The position numbers were made by a program, and so were the translations under genes. The notes beneath the pieces were generated by a model. It searched no databases and was not told the origin of the DNA. It saw nothing but the letters and a program-made list of their open reading frames with translations. Of a stretch of 64,000 nucleotides of DNA, positions 22,219 to 44,720 are shown piece by piece. Location of the stretch: contig CAVUSO010000001.1 in assembly GCA_963744145.1 (NCBI GenBank), positions 3,328,001 through 3,392,000 of the forward strand. Direction: 5' to 3'. Positions within the stretch are counted from its first letter, which is position 1, and each line of letters starts with the position of its first letter. Source of the stretch: an uncultured cyanobacterium. Its GTDB lineage: Bacteria > Cyanobacteriota > Cyanobacteriia > Cyanobacteriales > CAWUOF01.

Positions 22219-22279
22219 TCTGTTTTTTATTCTGGTCATTCGGAGCGCGATCGCGCTCCTGTAATCGATTAGCTTAGAT

Positions 22280-23473
22280 AATAGAGAAATTAAATGCCCA
22301 CACTGTAATAAGATTATAACCGAACTACATCAAAACCGACCAATTCTAATTAGAGATTTATCAGTTTTTGGTAAACCAGTATATTTGAAAGTACCACGGC
22401 GTCGATTCTATTGTCGTAAATGTCAACGTTATTCAACCGAAAAGCTGGATTGGTTAGATTGGGGACGCCGACATACTCAAAGATATGAAGCTAATATTTT
22501 TGAGAGAGTTAAAGGAGCAAGTATTTCTAGAGTAGCGTCGGAAGAAGGACTAAGTTTTGATGAAATTGAAGGGATATTTAAACAGGTCAGTAAAGCGAAA
22601 ATAAAACCAGACTGGGAACCAGTAAACCGAATCAGCATAGATGAAATTGCCATGCGGAAAGGGCAGAAAAGTTTTCAAACAGTAGTCAGTAATTTAGAAA
22701 GAGGAAAACTGAGCCGTAGGGGCGTATTGCAATACGCCCCTACTGATGGTCATAATCAAGAATCAATTGTTGAAAAGCTGATGCAGCAATCATTAGAGAT
22801 TAGAGAAATGGTGAAGGGGCGTATTGCAATACGCCCGTACATAGATATGTGGGGAGGATTTGCAAAAATTATCCCACAAATCTGCCCAAATGCTCGAATA
22901 GTTACTGATAGATTTCATGTCATGAAACCATTAATTAATGAACTCAAAAGAATTGCTAATCAGGTGGGAATTAAAACCTGGAAAGAGCTAGCATTAATTC
23001 TCAAAAATAACGAGCAATTAAACGCAAGAGAACTAGAAGAATTAGAGAAACTATTAAAGAAATCAAAACCTCTGAGAATAGCTTATGATTATAAAGAGGA
23101 ATTTCGTCAAAAATAGGTCGATACTAAAACGGTGGAAAAGGGGAAAGAGTTATTTACTAAATGGTTAGAAAAAGCATCTTGTATCTATGGACAAGTAATC
23201 CAAACAATTCAAAATTATTTAGATACAATTTGCAATTATTTTCTGAGCCGTAGTAGTAGTGGAGTGAGGTCAGGAATCAATAACAAAATCAAACAAATAA
23301 AACGTCAAGCCTACGGATTTACTAATTTTGATAATTTTCGTCTCCGACTTTTAGCTGGTTTTATTGATTAAAAAAAGTTTCAATTAGTAAAATATTCAGG
23401 AGCTTGGAGATTTTTTAAATAGTTAGTTTTGTTTGGTATTACATAATTTTATCACCATTAAACCATAAGACCC
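22280..23473 (+). mobile_element. ISL3-family element, 5'-truncated pseudogene with an in-frame stop at 23114 and two REP insertions
   Basis: CPHC, CRKC, SIDE, DMWGGF, DRFHV, GINNKIK..KRQAYG; right end ...CCATAAGACCC. Confidence 0.88.
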
Positions 23474-40046: not shown

Positions 40047-42383
40047 ATGGAATTTTCGATCGCGACACTGCTTTCCAATTTTGCAGATGATAAATTGGTT
40101 GCCCCTAAAATCTTGGAGAAGAAATTAGGATGTCAAGATGAAACTAGTCTTGATAAGTTGCAAATTGCTTTAGATGTACTCGAGAAAATCGGCTTATTAA
40201 TTAAAGAAAAAGGCCGTTATCGACGAGTAGGTGAAGAAGGGATCGTTGAAGCTAAACTCCGCTGTTCGAGCAAAGGTTTTTGCTTTGCGATTCAAGATAC
40301 GGAAGGTGCCGAAGATATATATATTCGTGAATGTCATCTGAGTAATGCTTGGAATGGCGATCGGGTGTTGGTGAAAATTATCAAAGAAGGTAGTCGTCGT
40401 CGCTCTCCGGAAGGAGAGGTCCGGTTAATTTTAGAACGCGGTAATCCTTCAGTTTTAGCACGGGTGAAACAAACTGAAGTCGGCTATCGAGCGGTTCCTT
40501 TAGATGATCGCCTGTTATTTGAACTCCAACTGAAAGCCAATGGCAATAACTTAGAAGAAGCGATCGATCATTTAGTACATGTCGAAGTTCTGCGCTACCC
40601 TTTAGGACAAAATCTGCCCCTAGGTCGCATCGCTAAGATTCTCGGAATTGATGCTGAAGCAGCTAATGATCTAGATATCGTTTGCTGTAAACATGATTTA
40701 CCCCGCAGTTTTCCTCCCCTGGTGATTGCGACTGGTAATGAGTTATCAAAAACAGTCCGGAAGGTGAATTTTAAAAATAGATTAGATCTACGTGATGTGT
40801 TTACGATCGCTTTTGTAGCTGAAAAAGAAATCAAAACCCAAGAGTCAGCGACGGAAATTACTGCTGCTAGTTATCCGATCGAACACGCGATCACTCTGGA
40901 AACTACTCACCAAACTGGTCAATGGCGTTTAGGTATTCATGTTACGGATGTTTCTCATTTTGTTCAACCTGAAGAAAAATTAGATCGAGAAAGCTTAAAA
41001 CGTGGCACTTCTGTACATCTAGGAGAAACCATCTTACCGATGTTACCTAAATATGTCAGTAGTGAAGTTTGTTCTTTATTACCAGAACAAGATCGATTGG
41101 CAATTTCGGTGTTGATCACTTTAAATGCGAAGGGACAGGTGTTAGAATTTGAAATTCAACCAACGGTCATCCATTTAGATGAATTAATCACCTATGAAAA
41201 AGCCACAGCAATTTTAGAACGTCGTGAGACTAATCGCATTCTGAGTCCGCTTTTGGAGCAACTTTTAGCACTCAGTATTCGTTTACAAGAACAGCGACAT
41301 CAACGTGGTGCTTTTGCCCTAAATTTGCCAGATAGTAAAAATCCCTATGAAGATGAAGGGCTGATTGGTGCGACGATCGTCTATCCCTCTCCTTCAATCA
41401 GGGCAATGATTACAGAGTTAATGATTCTAACTAATCAGCTTGTCGGAGAACATTTAAATGCGCTAGGAGTACCAACAATTTATCGAGTTCAACCTGCTCC
41501 TGATCCGGATGATGTGCAAGAGTTAATTAAATTGGCTAGCACTCTCGGGATTAATTTGCAATTGGAAAGTGAAGATACAGTTAATACTCAAGATATAAAA
41601 TTTTTTACCGAAGAGTTTGCTAAATCTCAAGCAGACAGAGTGTTAACTTATCAGTTACAATCCCTCCTTAGACCAGCACTTTACAGCACAACTCCCAAAC
41701 CTCATTTTGGACTAGCGTTGCATTCGGGATATACTCATTTTACTTCACCCATTCAACGTTATCCAGATTTGTTGGTGCAACGCTCCTTACAAGCAGTGTT
41801 TGAATTAGGTCGCGATCGCCGTACTACTCGGGCTAAAGAAAGGGTTAATTTGCGTCATAGTTCTTGTCACGGTAAAATTAACTGGAATGTATTACCTCCA
41901 GAAGTTCATCATGAATTAGAATCACGTTTGTCTGCTCAGATTGTCCATCTTACTGATCGAGAAAAAGTCGCTTTTGAAGCTCAAGCAGATCTAAGTGGAT
42001 TACAAAAAGCTGGGTTGATGAAAGAACGTACAGGGGAAACTTTTCCAGGATTAATTACAGGTGTTCAGTCTTATGGTTTCTTTGTCGAAATTGAACTCCC
42101 TGGTCCGAAAAATGAACCCCTGAGAGTCGAAGGACTGGTTCATGTTTCCTCGCTCAAAGATGACTGGTATGAATATCGTTCTCGACAAATGACTCTGGTT
42201 GGTCGGAAAAATCGTGCTTCCTATCGATTGGGCGATCGAGTAGAAGTTCAAGTTAAAAGCGTAGATTACTATCGTCAGCAAATAGACTTAGCTGTCGTCA
42301 GTGGTGGTAGTCAAGATGCGGATGATTATGATGATGCGCCTAATTCCGATTTGTCTTTTGACAACGATCCCTATGATTTTTAA
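40047..42383 (+). CDS. rnr: Ribonuclease R/II family protein
   Basis: Cold-shock domains, HFGLA..YTHFTSPI.RYPDL, C-terminal S1 domain. Confidence 0.9.
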   Translation: MEFSIATLLSNFADDKLVAPKILEKKLGCQDETSLDKLQIALDVLEKIGLLIKEKGRYRRVGEEGIVEAKLRCSSKGFCFAIQDTEGAEDIYIRECHLSNAWNGDRVLVKIIKEGSRRRSPEGEVRLILERGNPSVLARVKQTEVGYRAVPLDDRLLFELQLKANGNNLEEAIDHLVHVEVLRYPLGQNLPLGRIAKILGIDAEAANDLDIVCCKHDLPRSFPPLVIATGNELSKTVRKVNFKNRLDLRDVFTIAFVAEKEIKTQESATEITAASYPIEHAITLETTHQTGQWRLGIHVTDVSHFVQPEEKLDRESLKRGTSVHLGETILPMLPKYVSSEVCSLLPEQDRLAISVLITLNAKGQVLEFEIQPTVIHLDELITYEKATAILERRETNRILSPLLEQLLALSIRLQEQRHQRGAFALNLPDSKNPYEDEGLIGATIVYPSPSIRAMITELMILTNQLVGEHLNALGVPTIYRVQPAPDPDDVQELIKLASTLGINLQLESEDTVNTQDIKFFTEEFAKSQADRVLTYQLQSLLRPALYSTTPKPHFGLALHSGYTHFTSPIQRYPDLLVQRSLQAVFELGRDRRTTRAKERVNLRHSSCHGKINWNVLPPEVHHELESRLSAQIVHLTDREKVAFEAQADLSGLQKAGLMKERTGETFPGLITGVQSYGFFVEIELPGPKNEPLRVEGLVHVSSLKDDWYEYRSRQMTLVGRKNRASYRLGDRVEVQVKSVDYYRQQIDLAVVSGGSQDADDYDDAPNSDLSFDNDPYDF

Positions 42384-42454
42384 TCGTTAGTAGTTAGACT
42401 TTAGTAGTTATTTTTTTGCTGCTAATGTCTATCTGCTCACAAAAAACATGGGTT

Positions 42455-44062
42455 TGTGGGAAGCTCAGGTTCTTTAGACCGTTCGACTACGCTCACTTAG
42501 AGCCTGAGAGGGAAACGACCCAAGTGGTTTTAACCACCAGAGAATATTTCTTAATCTTACCATTGCTTTTGTAGAAAAGACTTACTTTTTTCTCGACATT
42601 AAGCTATGATGTATATAGAGAAAGGAAAGTAATCAAATGGTCAAAAAAAAGAAAACAGAAAAGAAGCCCCGTAGGGGGCGTATTGCAATACGCCCGTACT
42701 TAGGTGTTCAGCAAAATTTAATTAATGCTGGTTCAGAGTTAAAAGCAATTCTTGAATTTATTTGTTCAGAGTCCAATAAACTACACAATTGTGCTACCTA
42801 TTACGCTCGTCAAATCTGGTTCAAAACTCGCAGATTTGTAACGAAGTTTGAGATCGGGGCACACCTAATACAAACTAAAAATAGACATTTTTCTGCCCTA
42901 CCATCCGATGCCGCAACACAAACTTGTAATGCCGTAGGTGAGTCAATTAGTTCCTTCGCCAAATTACGAGAACTTTGGCTGAGTGGTCAACTCGAAACTA
43001 AACCCAACTTGCCCAATTATCGGAAAACAGGTGGCTATCAATTAATTGCCTATCCGAAACGATCGCTAAGGTTAATTGATGGAAAGATTAGATTTCCTTT
43101 AGGGTTGCAAATCAACGCTTGGTTTGGCATCAAAGAGTTTTTCCTACCAAAGCCAGTACGGGCGTATTGCAATACGCCCCTAGATTTTGAGTCTGTTAGA
43201 GAAGTCAGAATCCTCCCAAGAAATGGATGTTTTTATGCAGAGTTTGTCTACCCAAACTTAGTCGAAAAACCTGTTCTAGACCCAGCTAAATGCTTAGGGT
43301 TAGATCACGGTTTAAACAACTGGCTAACAGCCGTTAGTAATGTGGGCACAAGTTTTATTATTGATGGCAAACACTTAAAATCTGTTAACCAATGGTACAA
43401 CAAACAAATAGCCAAACTCAAAGCTGGTAAACCAGAGGGGTTTTGGTCTAATCGTCTGGCAGCAATGACTGAAAAACGAAACAGACAGATGAGGGATGCT
43501 ATCAACAAAGCGGCTCGGTTAGTGATAAACCATTGTTTGAATAATGGGATAGGAACTTTAGTATTTGGTTGGAATAAAGGACAAAAAGATAGCATTGAGT
43601 TAGGTAAGAAAACTAATCAGTACGGGCGTATTGCAATACGCCCCTACCAAATACCTACGGCTAGACTCAAAGCAAGACTTGAACAACTTGGTAAATTGTT
43701 CGGCATTAAGTTTGAAGAAACTGAAGAAAGCTACACAAGTAAAGCTAGTTTTTTAGACGCTGACCCCATGTACGGGCGTATTGCAATACGCCCCTACGAT
43801 GGTGAAAAACCTTTTATAATGGACAGCATCAGGAAAAAGAGTTAAACGAGGCTTGTATGTCAGTTCTAAAGGCATTCAAGTTAATGCCGATTGCAACGGT
43901 GCAGCTAATATTTTGAGAAAAGTAGCGGTGAATCTTGGGCTAGTCCTAAGTGAAATCAGTAGAGGTGTCTTGTACGCGCCTTTGAAGGGGCGTATTGCAA
44001 TACGCCCGTACAGACTCTGGACTATTCAAGAATCTCCGTGTCTTTAGACCTGAGAGTATCAA
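42455..44062 (+). mobile_element. IS200/IS605-family element carrying tnpB only (left end approximate)
   Basis: Subterminal TCTTTAGACC..TGAGAG at both ends; right end finishes TCAA at 44062. Confidence 0.8.
42637..44047 (+). pseudogene. tnpB: TnpB RNA-guided nuclease, frameshifted at ~43815, with five in-frame REP insertions
   Basis: LGLDHG, EESYTSKASFLD, NADCNGAANIL; WTASGKRVKRGLY continues in the shifted frame. Confidence 0.88.
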
Positions 44063-44093
44063 TGATCAACTCTTACCAATAAAAACTTACAAA

Positions 44094-44720
44094 TTGCAAC
44101 ATCATCCTTTAATTTTGGGAATTTCTGGAGCATCTGGTCTGATCTATGCTGTCCGTTCCCTGAAATTTTTATTGCAGGCAAATTATCCAATTGAGTTAGT
44201 CGCCTCGAAAGCAAGTTATTTGCTCTGGCAAAGTGAGTATGGGCTAAAAATGCCCGCCCAAATGCCTAAACAGGAGGAATTTTGGCGTCAACAAGCGGGT
44301 GTAGAAAATAGTGGTAAGCTGACCTGTCATTTTTGGCATAATGTGGGCGCTAATATTGCTAGTGGTTCCTTTCGCACACTGGGGATGATAGTGATTCCTT
44401 GCAGTATGAGTACAGTAGCTAAACTAGCAGTAGGGATGAGTTCTGATTTATTGGAACGAGCTGCTGATGTCCAACTCAAAGAAGGTCGTCCCTTGGTGAT
44501 TGTACCGCGCGAAACTCCCTTGAGTCTGATTCATCTCCGGAATTTGACTGCTTTAGCCGAAGCTGGTGCCCGAATTGTCCCAGCAATTCCTGCTTGGTAT
44601 CATCAACCCCAGACTATTGAGGATTTGGTCGATTTTGTGGTTGCTCGCGCTTTAGATCAGCTCAATATTGATTGTGTTCCCCTGCGTCGGTGGGAAGGAC
44701 TTGCTCCTGATGCTGATTAA
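44094..44720 (+). CDS. ubiX: Flavin prenyltransferase (start uncertain)
   Basis: GISGASG, IASGS, PCSM, LKE, PRETP motifs. Confidence 0.92.
   Translation: MQHHPLILGISGASGLIYAVRSLKFLLQANYPIELVASKASYLLWQSEYGLKMPAQMPKQEEFWRQQAGVENSGKLTCHFWHNVGANIASGSFRTLGMIVIPCSMSTVAKLAVGMSSDLLERAADVQLKEGRPLVIVPRETPLSLIHLRNLTALAEAGARIVPAIPAWYHQPQTIEDLVDFVVARALDQLNIDCVPLRRWEGLAPDAD

What the first reader, a model, noticed from the sequence alone, without database searches (positions are those of the whole stretch)
42637..44047. A 20-bp palindrome has colonised tnpB five times, always in frame; all seven copies seen in the window are in transposon genes
Seen: the identical core GGGCGTATTGCAATACGCCC, with GTAG/GTAC...CTAC/GTAC feet, occurs at about 42671, 43156, 43620, 43770 and 43986 in tnpB and twice in ISL3. 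By eye I found no copy in host genes or intergenic DNA, although these two IS cover under 3 kb of 64 kb. Family motifs resume in frame after every insert (peptides GRIAIRPY, VRAYCNTP, RRGVLQYAPT); 7/7 in frame has a chance of about (1/3)^7. In the GRIAIRPY frame the canonical GTAG foot would give a TAG stop, and those copies read TAC, AAG or AGG instead. Compared with the family consensus as I recall it (e.g. NQ-KFV-QIP), the inserts seem to replace 2-4 codons rather than duplicate a target. Known: GTAG-hairpin REPs are mobilised by HUH/RAYT enzymes, and very small dispersed repeats occur in cyanobacterial genes. Inference: this is a transposon-tropic micro-element, either a hyperparasite hitchhiking on still-translated IS genes or a host mechanism that marks or disarms mobile DNA.
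Basis: partly seen in the sequence, partly recalled or inferred. Interest (0 to 1): 0.85.

Follow-up and report, generated by a model that had tools for sequence, protein, structure and literature searches.

The report
Orphan REP palindrome crowding dead transposons
The 20-bp palindrome is the core of a known kind of small mobile hairpin repeat (a "double-foot" REP); in this cyanobacterium it has lost its own transposase gene and, unlike the other hairpin repeats of the genome, has piled up in decayed copies of insertion sequences.

Summary
There are 7 exact copies in the window: 5 in a tnpB relic and 2 in an ISL3 relic, and the frame is kept across all of them.

The element is a 28-bp double-foot REP, GTAG-GGGCGTATTGCAATACGCCC-CTAC, with 167 copies genome-wide. 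Its cognate RAYT, carrying three flanking or in-frame copies, sits in two other genomes (G007, G181). This genome has no close homologue; the best hit is 42% identical.

Filled/empty comparison of 37 distinct sites shows:
- no target duplication;
- 3-13 target bases replaced, for a net gain mostly of 14-24 nt;
- an AACTT target motif in 14 of 37 sites (1.5 expected).

Keeping the frame is not intrinsic to the element. Net gain is a multiple of 3 at 10 of 12 sites in tnpB/iscB and 7 of 7 in Uma2/host genes, but only 1 of 9 in transposases proper and 1 of 9 in noncoding DNA.

The link with IS DNA is real and specific to this repeat. Old IS-homologous DNA holds 38 copies in 42.5 kb (894/Mb), against 64/Mb in unique noncoding and about 1-3/Mb in unique coding DNA. 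Three other REP families of the genome have none there. Still, 66 copies are in unique noncoding DNA, 9 in Uma2 genes and 6 in host-like genes.

Nothing points to a host defence. This is a known kind with an unusual niche and a newly defined junction. The cause of the IS bias is unresolved.

The parts
42672..42699 (.). Palindrome copy 1 in tnpB (core 42676-42695; feet GTAGG..GTAC). Encodes RRGRIAIRPY in the N-terminal tail.
   Evidence: Versus 7 empty paralogues, 29 nt replace 8, net +21.
43156..43183 (.). Palindrome copy 2 in tnpB (core 43160-43179; feet GTAC..CTAG). Encodes VRAYCNTPL.
   Evidence: Net +18 versus 11 empty paralogues. The empty target holds AACTT. A soil-metagenome contig lacks 18 nt here.
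43620..43647 (.). Palindrome copy 3 in tnpB (core 43624-43643; feet GTAC..CTAC). YGRIAIRPY replaces NFV.
   Evidence: Net +18. The same site is filled in paralogues at C1:6641368 and C1:4112784. DNA hairpin -8 kcal/mol, z -3.5.
43770..43797 (.). Palindrome copy 4 in tnpB (core 43774-43793; feet GTAC..CTAC). Encodes MYGRIAIRPYD.
   Evidence: Net +21. The same site is filled independently in the paralogue at C1:4590128: each filled copy's flanks match its own empty relatives.
43984..44011 (.). Palindrome copy 5 in tnpB (core 43988-44007; feet GAAG..GTAC). KGRIAIRPY in the C-terminal tail, about 50 nt from the IS right end.
   Evidence: Net +21. The site is also filled at C1:4589915, 6641026, 6464519 and 3321429.
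42637..44047 (+). tnpB relic of a tnpB-only IS200/IS605-family element. ORFs 42637..43845 and 43853..44047 are separated by a +1 frameshift within 43810-43819. Homology to paralogues ends near 44063.
   Evidence: PF01385, 65.6 bits; 79-86% nucleotide identity to full-length insert-free paralogues; no twin at 95% or more.
22716..22743 (.). Palindrome copy in ISL3 (core 22720-22739; canonical feet GTAG..CTAC). Encodes RRGVLQYAPT.
   Evidence: The Pfam DDE_Tnp_ISL3 match runs across it. About +21 versus diverged paralogues (uncertain).
22813..22840 (.). Palindrome copy in ISL3 (core 22817-22836; feet GAAG..GTAC). Encodes KGRIAIRPY.
   Evidence: The same site in twin ISL3 copies C1:4663595 and C1:6508385 has a GTAG foot and hence an in-frame TAG.
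22265..23371 (+). ISL3 transposase relic. The open frame runs to 23113, an in-frame TAG sits at 23114-23116, and a second ORF runs 23132..23371.
   Evidence: 3350631-3351350, 1 TAG inside.

Best explanation
What it is. The 20-mer is the stem-loop of a 28-bp 'double-foot' REP, GTAG-GGGCGTATTGCAATACGCCC-CTAC. This is the kind of hairpin repeat tied to REP-associated tyrosine (HUH/Y1) transposases of subclass 2.4.

Shown:
1. Its cognate RAYT gene sits in two other genomes of the order. One copy of the palindrome lies just upstream, one lies in frame right after the HuH motif, and one lies at the 3' end.
2. This genome has 167 copies but no close homologue of that RAYT. Its two resident RAYT-like genes are flanked by other REPs that share the head GTAGGGGC.
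3. New copies do not duplicate the target. They replace 3-13 bases, very often at AACTT/AAGTT. The same junction recurs at the same site in different paralogues.
4. Net gain is not intrinsically a multiple of three. In-frame copies are what survives in genes kept open (tnpB, iscB, Uma2, sensor-kinase linkers). Out-of-frame copies sit in dead transposases and noncoding DNA.
5. Copies are about 14-fold denser in old IS-derived DNA than in unique noncoding DNA, and other REP families are not.

Inferred:
- Insertion is a single-strand cut-and-join by a Y1 enzyme acting in trans, probably a resident RAYT that reads the shared GTAGGGGC head.
- In this genome that non-cognate reaction has a target choice favouring IS-derived DNA, for a reason not yet known.
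- The five hits in one tnpB reflect several AACTT sites lying in length-variable tails and loops of a long-lived relic.
For: Copy number and form: 87 exact copies, 167 with up to 3 mismatches. The canonical 28-mer folds at -12.6 kcal/mol as DNA.

REPtron:
- G007:C1:2237462-2238055 encodes a 198-aa protein with MPNHLHGII, WQRNYYE and YIINNP.
- These match the subclass 2.4 signature NH[IFV]H / WQ / YIxNNP in Table 1 of PMC6006769 (passages read).
- That paper also describes 'double foot' REPs and in-frame REP insertions between HuH and Y.
- The three palindromes there are the only exact copies in G007.
- G181 has an 87% identical orthologue with the same three copies.
- Both proteins hit the NCBIfam RAYT model best, at 66 bits.

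Own genome:
- The best homologues are 42% and 41% identical.
- They are flanked by GTAGGGGCGGGTTCACC... and GTAGGGGCAAAGCAT... repeats.
- There are 602 GTAGGGGCG heads in the genome.

Junctions and frame:
- Searches give the filled/empty junctions.
- AACTT occurs in 14 of 37 distinct empty sites against 1.54 expected, p 1e-10.
- Multiples of 3: 10 of 12 tnpB/iscB sites, 7 of 7 Uma2/host, 1 of 9 transposases proper, 1 of 9 noncoding.

Enrichment:
- 38 copies in 42.5 kb of old IS-homologous DNA, against 70 in 1091 kb of unique noncoding DNA.
- The other REP families have 0 copies in the same masks, against 38-160/Mb in unique noncoding DNA.
- AASTT is only 1.6-fold denser in tnpB.
- Exact cores make up 57 of 83 copies in repeated DNA against 21 of 69 in unique noncoding DNA.
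- None of the 116 homologues of this TnpB from other sources, among the best 120 listed, carries the peptides.

Position in TnpB: all five tnpB sites lie in or next to length-variable parts of a 20-sequence TnpB alignment.
Against: - No RAYT flanked by this palindrome exists in the genome itself. Mobilisation here is inferred, and the burst could be over.
- Y1 transposition as known for IS608 neither deletes target bases nor changes flanking bases, so the 3-13 nt replacement is not explained by the textbook reaction (recalled knowledge).
- The NCBIfam scores of the REPtron proteins (66 bits) are below the curated cut-off of 80.
- The IS masks cover only tnpB, ISL3 and DDE_Tnp_1 without bias. 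Other IS families were seeded from copies that hold the palindrome.
- The coding mask is crude: ORFs of 100 aa or more.
- Young IS copies (76 kb) hold only 9 copies from 2 sites, which fits simple time-dependent accumulation as well.
- The frame contrast rests on few lineages: more than half of the tnpB sites come from one tnpB family.
Confidence: 0.65

Rival explanations
1. Neutral sink only. The element lands anywhere with AACTT-like sequence. Selection removes it from host genes and most intergenic DNA, and dead IS copies are simply the largest stock of truly neutral DNA. There is no insertion bias.
For: - Density falls in the order relics 894/Mb, unique noncoding 64/Mb, unique coding about 1-3/Mb.
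- Survivors in host-type genes are all in frame, 7 of 7.
- They sit in linkers or tails. Both sensor kinases carry it between HATPase_c and the receiver domain.
- Young IS copies have few.
Against: - Three other REP families with 38-160 copies/Mb in unique noncoding DNA have 0 in the same 42.5 kb.
- In G213, G181, G352 and G148, 0 of 18 sampled copies lie in IS-homologous DNA, and 0 lie inside 30 sampled tnpB genes of G213 and G181, although G213 and G181 give 46 and 42 OrfB_IS605 matches.
- IS-associated copies are mostly exact, hence young: 57 of 83 against 21 of 69. This gives little time for slow purging elsewhere.
- The feet differ by context. Canonical GTAG/GTAG makes up 31 of 69 copies in unique noncoding DNA but 4 of 52 in coding classes.
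Confidence: 0.28
2. Spread by gene conversion. A few original insertions were copied among paralogous IS, Uma2 and kinase genes by homologous recombination, which inflates counts in multi-copy families.
For: The same site with the same junction is filled in several paralogues:
- tnpB sites 3, 4 and 5;
- the Uma2 sites, with net +18 or +15;
- the linker of two kinases.
Against: - At tnpB site 4 the bases right next to the palindrome match each copy's own empty relatives, not the other filled copy.
- At least 15 distinct sites exist in tnpB-homologous DNA alone (my count from the 24 copies listed and the junctions), and 37 distinct sites have empty partners. De novo insertion is therefore frequent.
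- Uma2, with at least 150 genes, is not enriched: 9 copies in roughly 90 kb, my estimate at about 0.6 kb a gene.
Confidence: 0.1
3. Host device against mobile DNA. The cell inserts the hairpin into transposon genes to mark or disarm them.
For: - 8 of 9 sites in transposases proper shift the frame.
- The canonical foot gives a TAG stop in ISL3 twin copies.
- Copies are enriched in IS DNA.
Against: - In tnpB and iscB, 10 of 12 sites keep the frame.
- The young multi-copy IS, the active ones, are nearly untouched.
- One IS multiplied to several near-identical copies after taking up two copies.
- 66 copies are in ordinary unique noncoding DNA.
- The element has a selfish REPtron in other genomes.
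- No candidate host machinery was found.
Confidence: 0.04
4. Imported with the IS. The palindromes were acquired in a former host and came in by horizontal transfer of already colonised IS copies.
For: - The 20-mer is identical in two families of the order and patchy, in 6 of 401 genomes.
- IS DNA is foreign-looking: HIP1 is 14-100-fold rarer than in host DNA.
Against: - None of the 116 TnpB homologues from other sources, among the best 120 listed, carries the palindrome peptides.
- Insert-free paralogues of the same lineages sit in the same genome.
- Cores are exact while the relic is 14% diverged from its nearest paralogue.
Confidence: 0.04

Closest known systems
'Double foot' REPs of TnpA_REP (RAYT) subclass 2.4 / Bertels group 4 (Quentin et al. 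2018, PMC6006769; passages read)
   Same: - 5' GT[AG]G and 3' C[TC]AC feet around a GC-based hairpin.
- Abundant in cyanobacteria.
- REP copies flank the RAYT gene and are inserted in frame between HuH and Y. Exactly this is seen in G007 and G181.
   Different: - In this genome the cognate RAYT is missing.
- 39% of copies sit in IS elements.
- Many copies have one GTAC or GAAG foot.
- A preference for IS relics, the AACTT target and the replacement of target bases are not in the passages I read.
REPINs and RAYTs (Bertels and Rainey 2011, PMC3116915; abstract and passages read)
   Same: Short palindromes spread within a genome and are linked to a single-copy Y1 transposase. That paper's survey includes Nostoc punctiforme.
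   Different: REPINs are doublets of REPs with a spacer and are extragenic. Here the unit is a single 28-bp perfect palindrome, which could be a doublet collapsed by central deletion as PMC6006769 suggests, and it is often intragenic.
Intragenic REPs (Di Nocera et al. 2013, PMC3733652; abstract and passages read) and Rickettsia palindromic elements (named in that text)
   Same: GTAG-tagged palindromes are found inside open reading frames without breaking them. Cyanobacterial families GTAG-12, -15 and -16 are listed.
   Different: That survey stresses replication and repair genes, not transposon genes. Its supplements held here contain none of the peptides or the core. No junction analysis with empty sites appears in what I read.
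Small dispersed repeats (SDR) of Nostoc punctiforme (Elhai et al. 2008, PMC2527708)
   Same: Recalled only: 21-27 nt hairpin repeats in cyanobacteria, nested in other mobile elements and in genes. PMC4390886 says SDR5 inserts precisely inside HIP1.
   Different: The paper is not held. I could not check whether this palindrome is one of the SDR families, or whether replacement of target bases was already described there.
IS elements that target REPs (Tobes and Pareja 2006; title seen in a reference list only)
   Same: It links REPs with insertion sequences.
   Different: The relation is the inverse. There the IS inserts into REPs; here the REP inserts into IS genes.

Membership tests
REP / RAYT system (double-foot REP, TnpA_REP subclass 2.4) | Short, high-copy dispersed hairpin with a GC-rich stem base | tested here: met
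   167 copies (87 exact) in 7.7 Mb against 0 expected in shuffles of the window. 12-bp stem with feet, -12.6 kcal/mol as DNA. The window copy at 43620 folds at -8 kcal/mol, z -3.5.
REP / RAYT system (double-foot REP, TnpA_REP subclass 2.4) | 5' GT[AG]G foot and its complement C[TC]AC at the 3' end | tested here: met
   Both feet are canonical in 44 of 167 copies of this genome and in 11 of 14 sampled copies of G213 and G181. The other copies here carry GTAC, GAAG or other variants, mostly in genic or IS contexts.
REP / RAYT system (double-foot REP, TnpA_REP subclass 2.4) | Copies flank a RAYT gene (REPtron) | tested here: inconclusive
   Met in G007 and G181: upstream, internal and 3' copies, conserved between 87% identical orthologues. 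Not met in the window's own genome: the best homologues are 42% and 41% identical, with other REPs at their flanks.
REP / RAYT system (double-foot REP, TnpA_REP subclass 2.4) | Associated protein has HuH and Y motifs with the subclass signature NH[IFV]H, WQ, YIxNNP | tested here: met
   P0001 reads MPNHLHGII, WQRNYYE and YIINNP, against Table 1 of PMC6006769. The best NCBIfam hit is the RAYT model, but at 66 bits it is below the cut-off of 80 because the insert splits the match.
REP / RAYT system (double-foot REP, TnpA_REP subclass 2.4) | REP inserted in frame inside the RAYT gene between HuH and Y | tested here: met
   CRGVLQYAPT follows right after HLHGIIII in both orthologues.
REP / RAYT system (double-foot REP, TnpA_REP subclass 2.4) | Mobilised by the RAYT | not testable with these tools
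   This needs a transposition or cleavage assay.
MITE (non-autonomous DDE transposon) | Terminal inverted repeats plus target-site duplication | tested here: not met
   No duplication at any of 37 distinct filled/empty sites. Target bases are lost instead.
Solo end hairpin of an IS200/IS605 element | Sequence matches the subterminal LE/RE hairpins of a resident IS | tested here: not met
   The ends of the 5-copy tnpA+tnpB IS, TCATAGAAATAACTCGG... and ...TAGACCTGAGAGTATCA, bear no likeness to the palindrome. The palindromes next to IS605-type tnpA genes are insertions relative to paralogues.
SDR families of Elhai et al. 2008 | Identity with one of the eight published SDR consensus sequences | not tested

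The most novel reading that the evidence does not exclude
In this lineage a REP has changed niche. Cut off from its own RAYT, it is moved in trans by a non-cognate Y1 enzyme through a cut-and-replace reaction at AAC^TT. That reaction prefers IS-derived DNA, making the REP a parasite of transposon relics. Solo tnpB and iscB genes are under enough selection that only in-frame hits persist in them, unlike DDE, Y1, IS1 and ISL3 transposase genes.
Probability: 0.3. Interest if true: 0.75.

Novelty: new variant of a known kind. Interest (0 to 1): 0.5.

Why it matters
By my recollection, how REPs and REPINs choose and enter a target is still unknown. This genome offers 37 distinct filled/empty site pairs. 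They give a target motif (AACTT), show that there is no duplication, and show a reproducible replacement of a few bases. These are concrete constraints that a biochemical model of RAYT action must meet.

The family-specific crowding in IS relics is absent for other REPs of the same cell, and absent where the family lives with its own RAYT. That is a testable case of one selfish element living on the remains of others.

The frame contrast (tnpB/iscB kept open, transposases not) is indirect evidence that solo TnpB/IscB genes are under selection.

In practice, these inserts add 5-7 residues to many predicted proteins. They can also seed false start codons, so annotators should know them.

Tried and rejected
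- Target quasi-palindromes. By eye several empty targets looked like small inverted repeats. A DNA-folding test of 53 empty sites against local controls showed no excess: 21% fell below the 25th percentile. Idea dropped.
- Extended target motif. Aligning the 14 AACTT sites showed nothing conserved beyond the pentamer.
- IS605-type tnpA genes next to palindromes (L001, L002) first looked like REPtrons. They are ordinary IS200/IS605 transposases (160 and 138 bits to NF033573), and the palindromes are insertions relative to paralogues.
- Foreign-DNA tropism. HIP1 density within 3 kb of unique-noncoding copies does not differ from controls. The distance to the nearest HIP1 is slightly larger (432 against 347 bp, p 0.004), too weak to build on.
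- tnpB-specific hot spot. It held at first, but old ISL3 and DDE relics have the same density.
- A first compartment test with 'repeated DNA' as a proxy for IS hid the effect. That class is mostly non-IS gene families such as Uma2, with at least 150 genes.
- Rfam: no match in 42300-44300.
- PDB by sequence: no match for the insert-free TnpB.
- Sequencing runs: no RNA holder is listed. The two runs laid are soil-metagenome contigs from one study. One 186-nt contig lacks 18 nt at site 2, which may be a paralogue or a relative.
- Earlier notes of this scan: nothing by sequence or words.
- Literature searches for REPs inside tnpB or IS genes listed no paper on it. This is a listing check, not proof that none exists.
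Full report
OBSERVATION

The window holds exactly seven copies of GGGCGTATTGCAATACGCCC, all exact, at 22720, 22817, 42676, 43160, 43624, 43774 and 43988. No match occurred in 100 shuffles.

Five copies lie in a gene with a Pfam OrfB_IS605 match. Two lie in a gene with the three ISL3 transposase domains.

The core has no stop codon in any of the six frames. With the canonical feet the unit is a perfect 28-bp palindrome, GTAG-core-CTAC.

Both host genes are relics.
- tnpB carries one extra base within 43810-43819, which splits the frame.
- ISL3 has an in-frame TAG at 23114-23116.

JUNCTIONS IN THE WINDOW'S tnpB

The genome holds full-length paralogues of this tnpB that are 79-86% identical and lack some or all inserts. 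A MAFFT alignment shows the following.

| Site | Inserted nt | Replaced nt | Net gain |
|---|---|---|---|
| 1 | 29 | 8 | +21 |
| 2 | 24 | 6 | +18 |
| 3 | 27 | 9 | +18 |
| 4 | 29 | 8 | +21 |
| 5 | 24 | 3 | +21 |

There is no target duplication.

Site 4 is also filled in the paralogue at C1:4590128. The bases beside the palindrome in each filled copy match that copy's own empty relatives. These are therefore independent hits that produced the same junction.

A broken paralogue at C1:6642278 has a site of its own with net +22, which is a frameshift.

GENOME-WIDE MAP

The genome (7.70 Mb, 4 contigs) has 87 exact copies and 167 with up to three mismatches.

Stop-to-stop frames of 100 aa or more span 62 copies. 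They make 46 distinct frames. Pfam names them as follows:
- 8 TnpB-type
- 2 ISL3
- 3 DDE_Tnp_1
- 2 IS630-like
- 1 IS1
- 1 serine recombinase, next to a tnpB
- 1 Y1 transposase
- 1 RRXRR+HNH (IscB-like)
- 8 Uma2
- 4 host-like: two sensor kinases hit in the linker between HATPase_c and the receiver domain, DUF1822, and YcaO at residue 5
- 15 with no family

With tblastn masks the final tally of the 167 copies is:
- 57 in DNA homologous to IS proteins, plus 8 in the end region of one multi-copy DDE IS, making 65 in IS elements
- 9 in Uma2 genes
- 6 in host-like frames
- 21 in other repeated noncoding DNA
- 66 in unique noncoding DNA

IS THE IS LINK MORE THAN TOLERANCE?

A first test used all repeated DNA as a proxy and showed nothing special. 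Repeated DNA makes up 15.5% of the genome and is mostly gene families. Uma2 alone gives at least 150 matches.

I then built masks from Pfam-located genes for tnpB, ISL3 and DDE_Tnp_1. I split them by whether a twin of at least 95% identity exists.

| DNA class | Size | Copies | Density |
|---|---|---|---|
| Old or solo IS-homologous DNA | 42.5 kb | 38 | 894/Mb |
| Young IS copies | 76 kb | 9, from two sites | 118/Mb |
| Unique noncoding DNA | 1091 kb | 70 | 64/Mb |
| Unique coding DNA | 5.4 Mb | 6-15, by mask | 1-3/Mb |

Within the old IS class, tnpB (24 copies in 29.4 kb), ISL3 (2 in 1.9 kb) and DDE_Tnp_1 (12 in 11.1 kb) all lie near 800-1100 copies per Mb.

The control that matters is the set of other REP families in the same genome. 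The heads GTAGGGGCGAAGCAT (463), GTAGGGGCGGGTTCACC (247) and GTGGGACAGGCT... (213) have no copy in either IS mask. Their densities in unique noncoding DNA are 38-160/Mb.

The target pentamer is only 1.6-fold denser in tnpB than in noncoding DNA.

Copies in repeated DNA are more often exact (57 of 83) than copies in unique noncoding DNA (21 of 69).

The feet also differ by context. Canonical GTAG/GTAG makes up 31 of 69 copies in unique noncoding DNA but 4 of 52 in the coding classes, where GTAC/GTAG (24) and GAAG/GTAC (15) dominate.

So the association with IS-derived DNA is real, specific to this family, and not a general property of relics. It is not specific to tnpB.

Hitch-hiking is real but minor. 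One DDE IS took up two palindromes (+17 and +23 relative to its single insert-free copy) and now has several near-identical copies that carry both.

FRAME

Across 37 distinct sites with an empty partner, net gain runs mostly from 14 to 24 nt, with one +38 site that looks like a double copy.

| Context | Sites that are a multiple of three | Note |
|---|---|---|
| tnpB and iscB | 10 of 12 | The other two are +22 and a +23 that is site 5 in a fragment |
| Uma2 and host-like genes | 7 of 7 | |
| Transposases proper (DDE, Y1, IS1, ISL3) | 1 of 9 | |
| Noncoding or unknown DNA | 1 of 9 | |

The mechanism therefore does not make in-frame inserts. In-frame copies are what remains in genes that are kept open.

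There is a natural counter-example to the window's ISL3 copy. Twin copies elsewhere have the canonical GTAG foot at the same site and thereby an in-frame TAG.

An open frame that reads through a copy is not proof of frame-keeping. In a DDE relic at C1:3599846 and C1:3600245, two copies of +20 and +19 lie in one 172-aa frame.

TARGET

AACTT (or AAGTT) occurs in the 16-nt centre of 14 of 37 distinct empty sites against 1.54 expected, p 1e-10. Nothing is conserved beyond the pentamer.

Targets are not unusually hairpin-prone.

The left foot often keeps the target's AC and the right foot its TT. For example, GAAC|TTC becomes GTAC-core-CTTC at site 5. Part of the foot variation therefore comes from the target.

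WHAT IT IS

The exact 20-mer occurs in 6 of 401 genomes of the order:
- this genome: 87
- G181: 68
- G213: 50
- G352: 4
- G007: 3
- G148: 1

The five others all belong to a different family. Four further genomes of the genus of G181 and G213 have none, and the only other genome of this genome's own family has none.

The three copies in G007 surround and enter one gene. One lies about 85 bp upstream, one lies in frame right after the HuH motif, and one lies at the 3' end. G181 has an 87% identical orthologue with the same three copies. Likeness between the two loci stops just outside the outer copies.

The protein reads MPNHLHGII, WQRNYYE and YIINNP. This is the signature of TnpA_REP subclass 2.4 in PMC6006769. 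That paper also describes 'double foot' REPs (GT[AG]G...C[TC]AC) and in-frame REP insertions between HuH and Y, and it cites REP insertions in unrelated genes (passages read). Both proteins hit the NCBIfam RAYT model best (66 bits, below the cut-off of 80).

The element is thus a member of a described kind.

THE OWN GENOME LACKS THE COGNATE ENZYME

The best homologues of the G007 protein are 42% and 41% identical.
- The one at C1:6661741-6662280 is flanked by inverted GTAGGGGCGGGTTCACC...GGTGAACCCGCCCCTAC repeats.
- The one at C1:4373058-4373597 is flanked by an array of GTAGGGGCAAAGCAT... repeats.

All share the head GTAGGGGC with our palindrome. The genome has 602 GTAGGGGCG heads. Mobilisation in trans by a resident RAYT is therefore plausible, but it is inferred.

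Two results show that the IS colonisation arose in this lineage.
- Where the family lives with, or near, its own RAYT, sampled copies have canonical feet (11 of 14 in G213 and G181), and 0 of the 18 copies sampled in G213, G181, G352 and G148 lie in IS-homologous DNA.
- None of the 116 homologues of the window's TnpB from other sources, among the best 120 listed, carries the palindrome peptides.

PLACE IN THE PROTEIN

No 3-D model could be made, and PDB has no sequence match.

In a 20-sequence TnpB alignment:
- sites 1 and 5 lie in N- and C-terminal tails that most relatives lack;
- site 4 lies in a subfamily-specific segment;
- sites 2 and 3 lie at places where relatives differ in length.

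This fits tolerated positions but is weak evidence. Site 5 lies about 50 nt from the IS right end, in DNA that in this IS family should encode the guide-RNA scaffold. That rests on recalled knowledge and was not tested.

VERDICT

The element is a double-foot REP of the RAYT subclass 2.4 type, which is a known kind.

What is unusual here:
- the loss of the cognate RAYT;
- the family-specific 14-fold excess in old IS-derived DNA;
- the defined AACTT target with replacement of target bases;
- the frame contrast between RNA-guided nuclease genes and transposases.

The cause of the IS excess is open. I put about 0.55 on a real insertion bias and 0.3 on pure tolerance.

Elhai et al. 2008, which may already describe this family, could not be read.

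Noticed in passing
G000:C1:6349143-6349550 (L057), outside the window: The only Y1 protein above the NCBIfam RAYT cut-off (100.3 bits) lies in frame inside a 1237-aa open frame. The rest of that frame looks like a DNA methyltransferase (DPPY motif). The RAYT part is bracketed on both sides by translated hairpins of other REP types, GTGG-GACAGGCTTCTAGCCTGTC and GTCGGGCAGGATGCCCGAC-CCAC.
   Followed up: partly
whole genome G000: HIP1 (GCGATCGC) is 14-100-fold rarer in IS-homologous DNA (71/Mb in relics, 13/Mb in young copies) than in unique coding or noncoding DNA (993 and 1350/Mb).
   Followed up: partly
whole genome G000: The Uma2 (PF05685) family is hugely expanded: 150 matches scored out of 250 candidates. 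Nine Uma2 genes carry the palindrome, with net gains of +18 or +15.
   Followed up: partly
G000:C1:6641822-6642248 (tnpB paralogue): A roughly 230-bp insertion of another REPIN type (GTAGGGGCGGGTTCACC...GGTGAACCTGCCCCTAC) splits this tnpB copy. It is of the kind that flanks the resident RAYT-like gene at C1:6661741.
   Followed up: no
window 43995-44720: The longest ORF of the gene downstream of the IS starts at a TTG inside palindrome 5 (MQYARTDSG...). The first residues of that ORF are therefore element and IS-end sequence, and automatic annotation may over-extend this gene.
   Followed up: no
L082 (G181:C62) about 300-360: After the internal palindrome of the G181 RAYT gene there are extra partial repeats of the half palindrome (AATACGCCCCTAC...). 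They add residues relative to G007.
   Followed up: no
window 43156-43180: One 186-nt soil-metagenome contig laid on the tnpB lacks 18 nt at site 2 and has 5 other differences. It is an empty allele in a relative or a paralogue.
   Followed up: no
G000:C1:344065 and C1:5920202: Two large sensor kinases (open frames of 1995 and 957 aa) carry the palindrome at the same linker position, between the HATPase_c and receiver domains (IVGAY(C/G)NTPVLN). Net gain is +21 versus 10 empty paralogues.
   Followed up: partly
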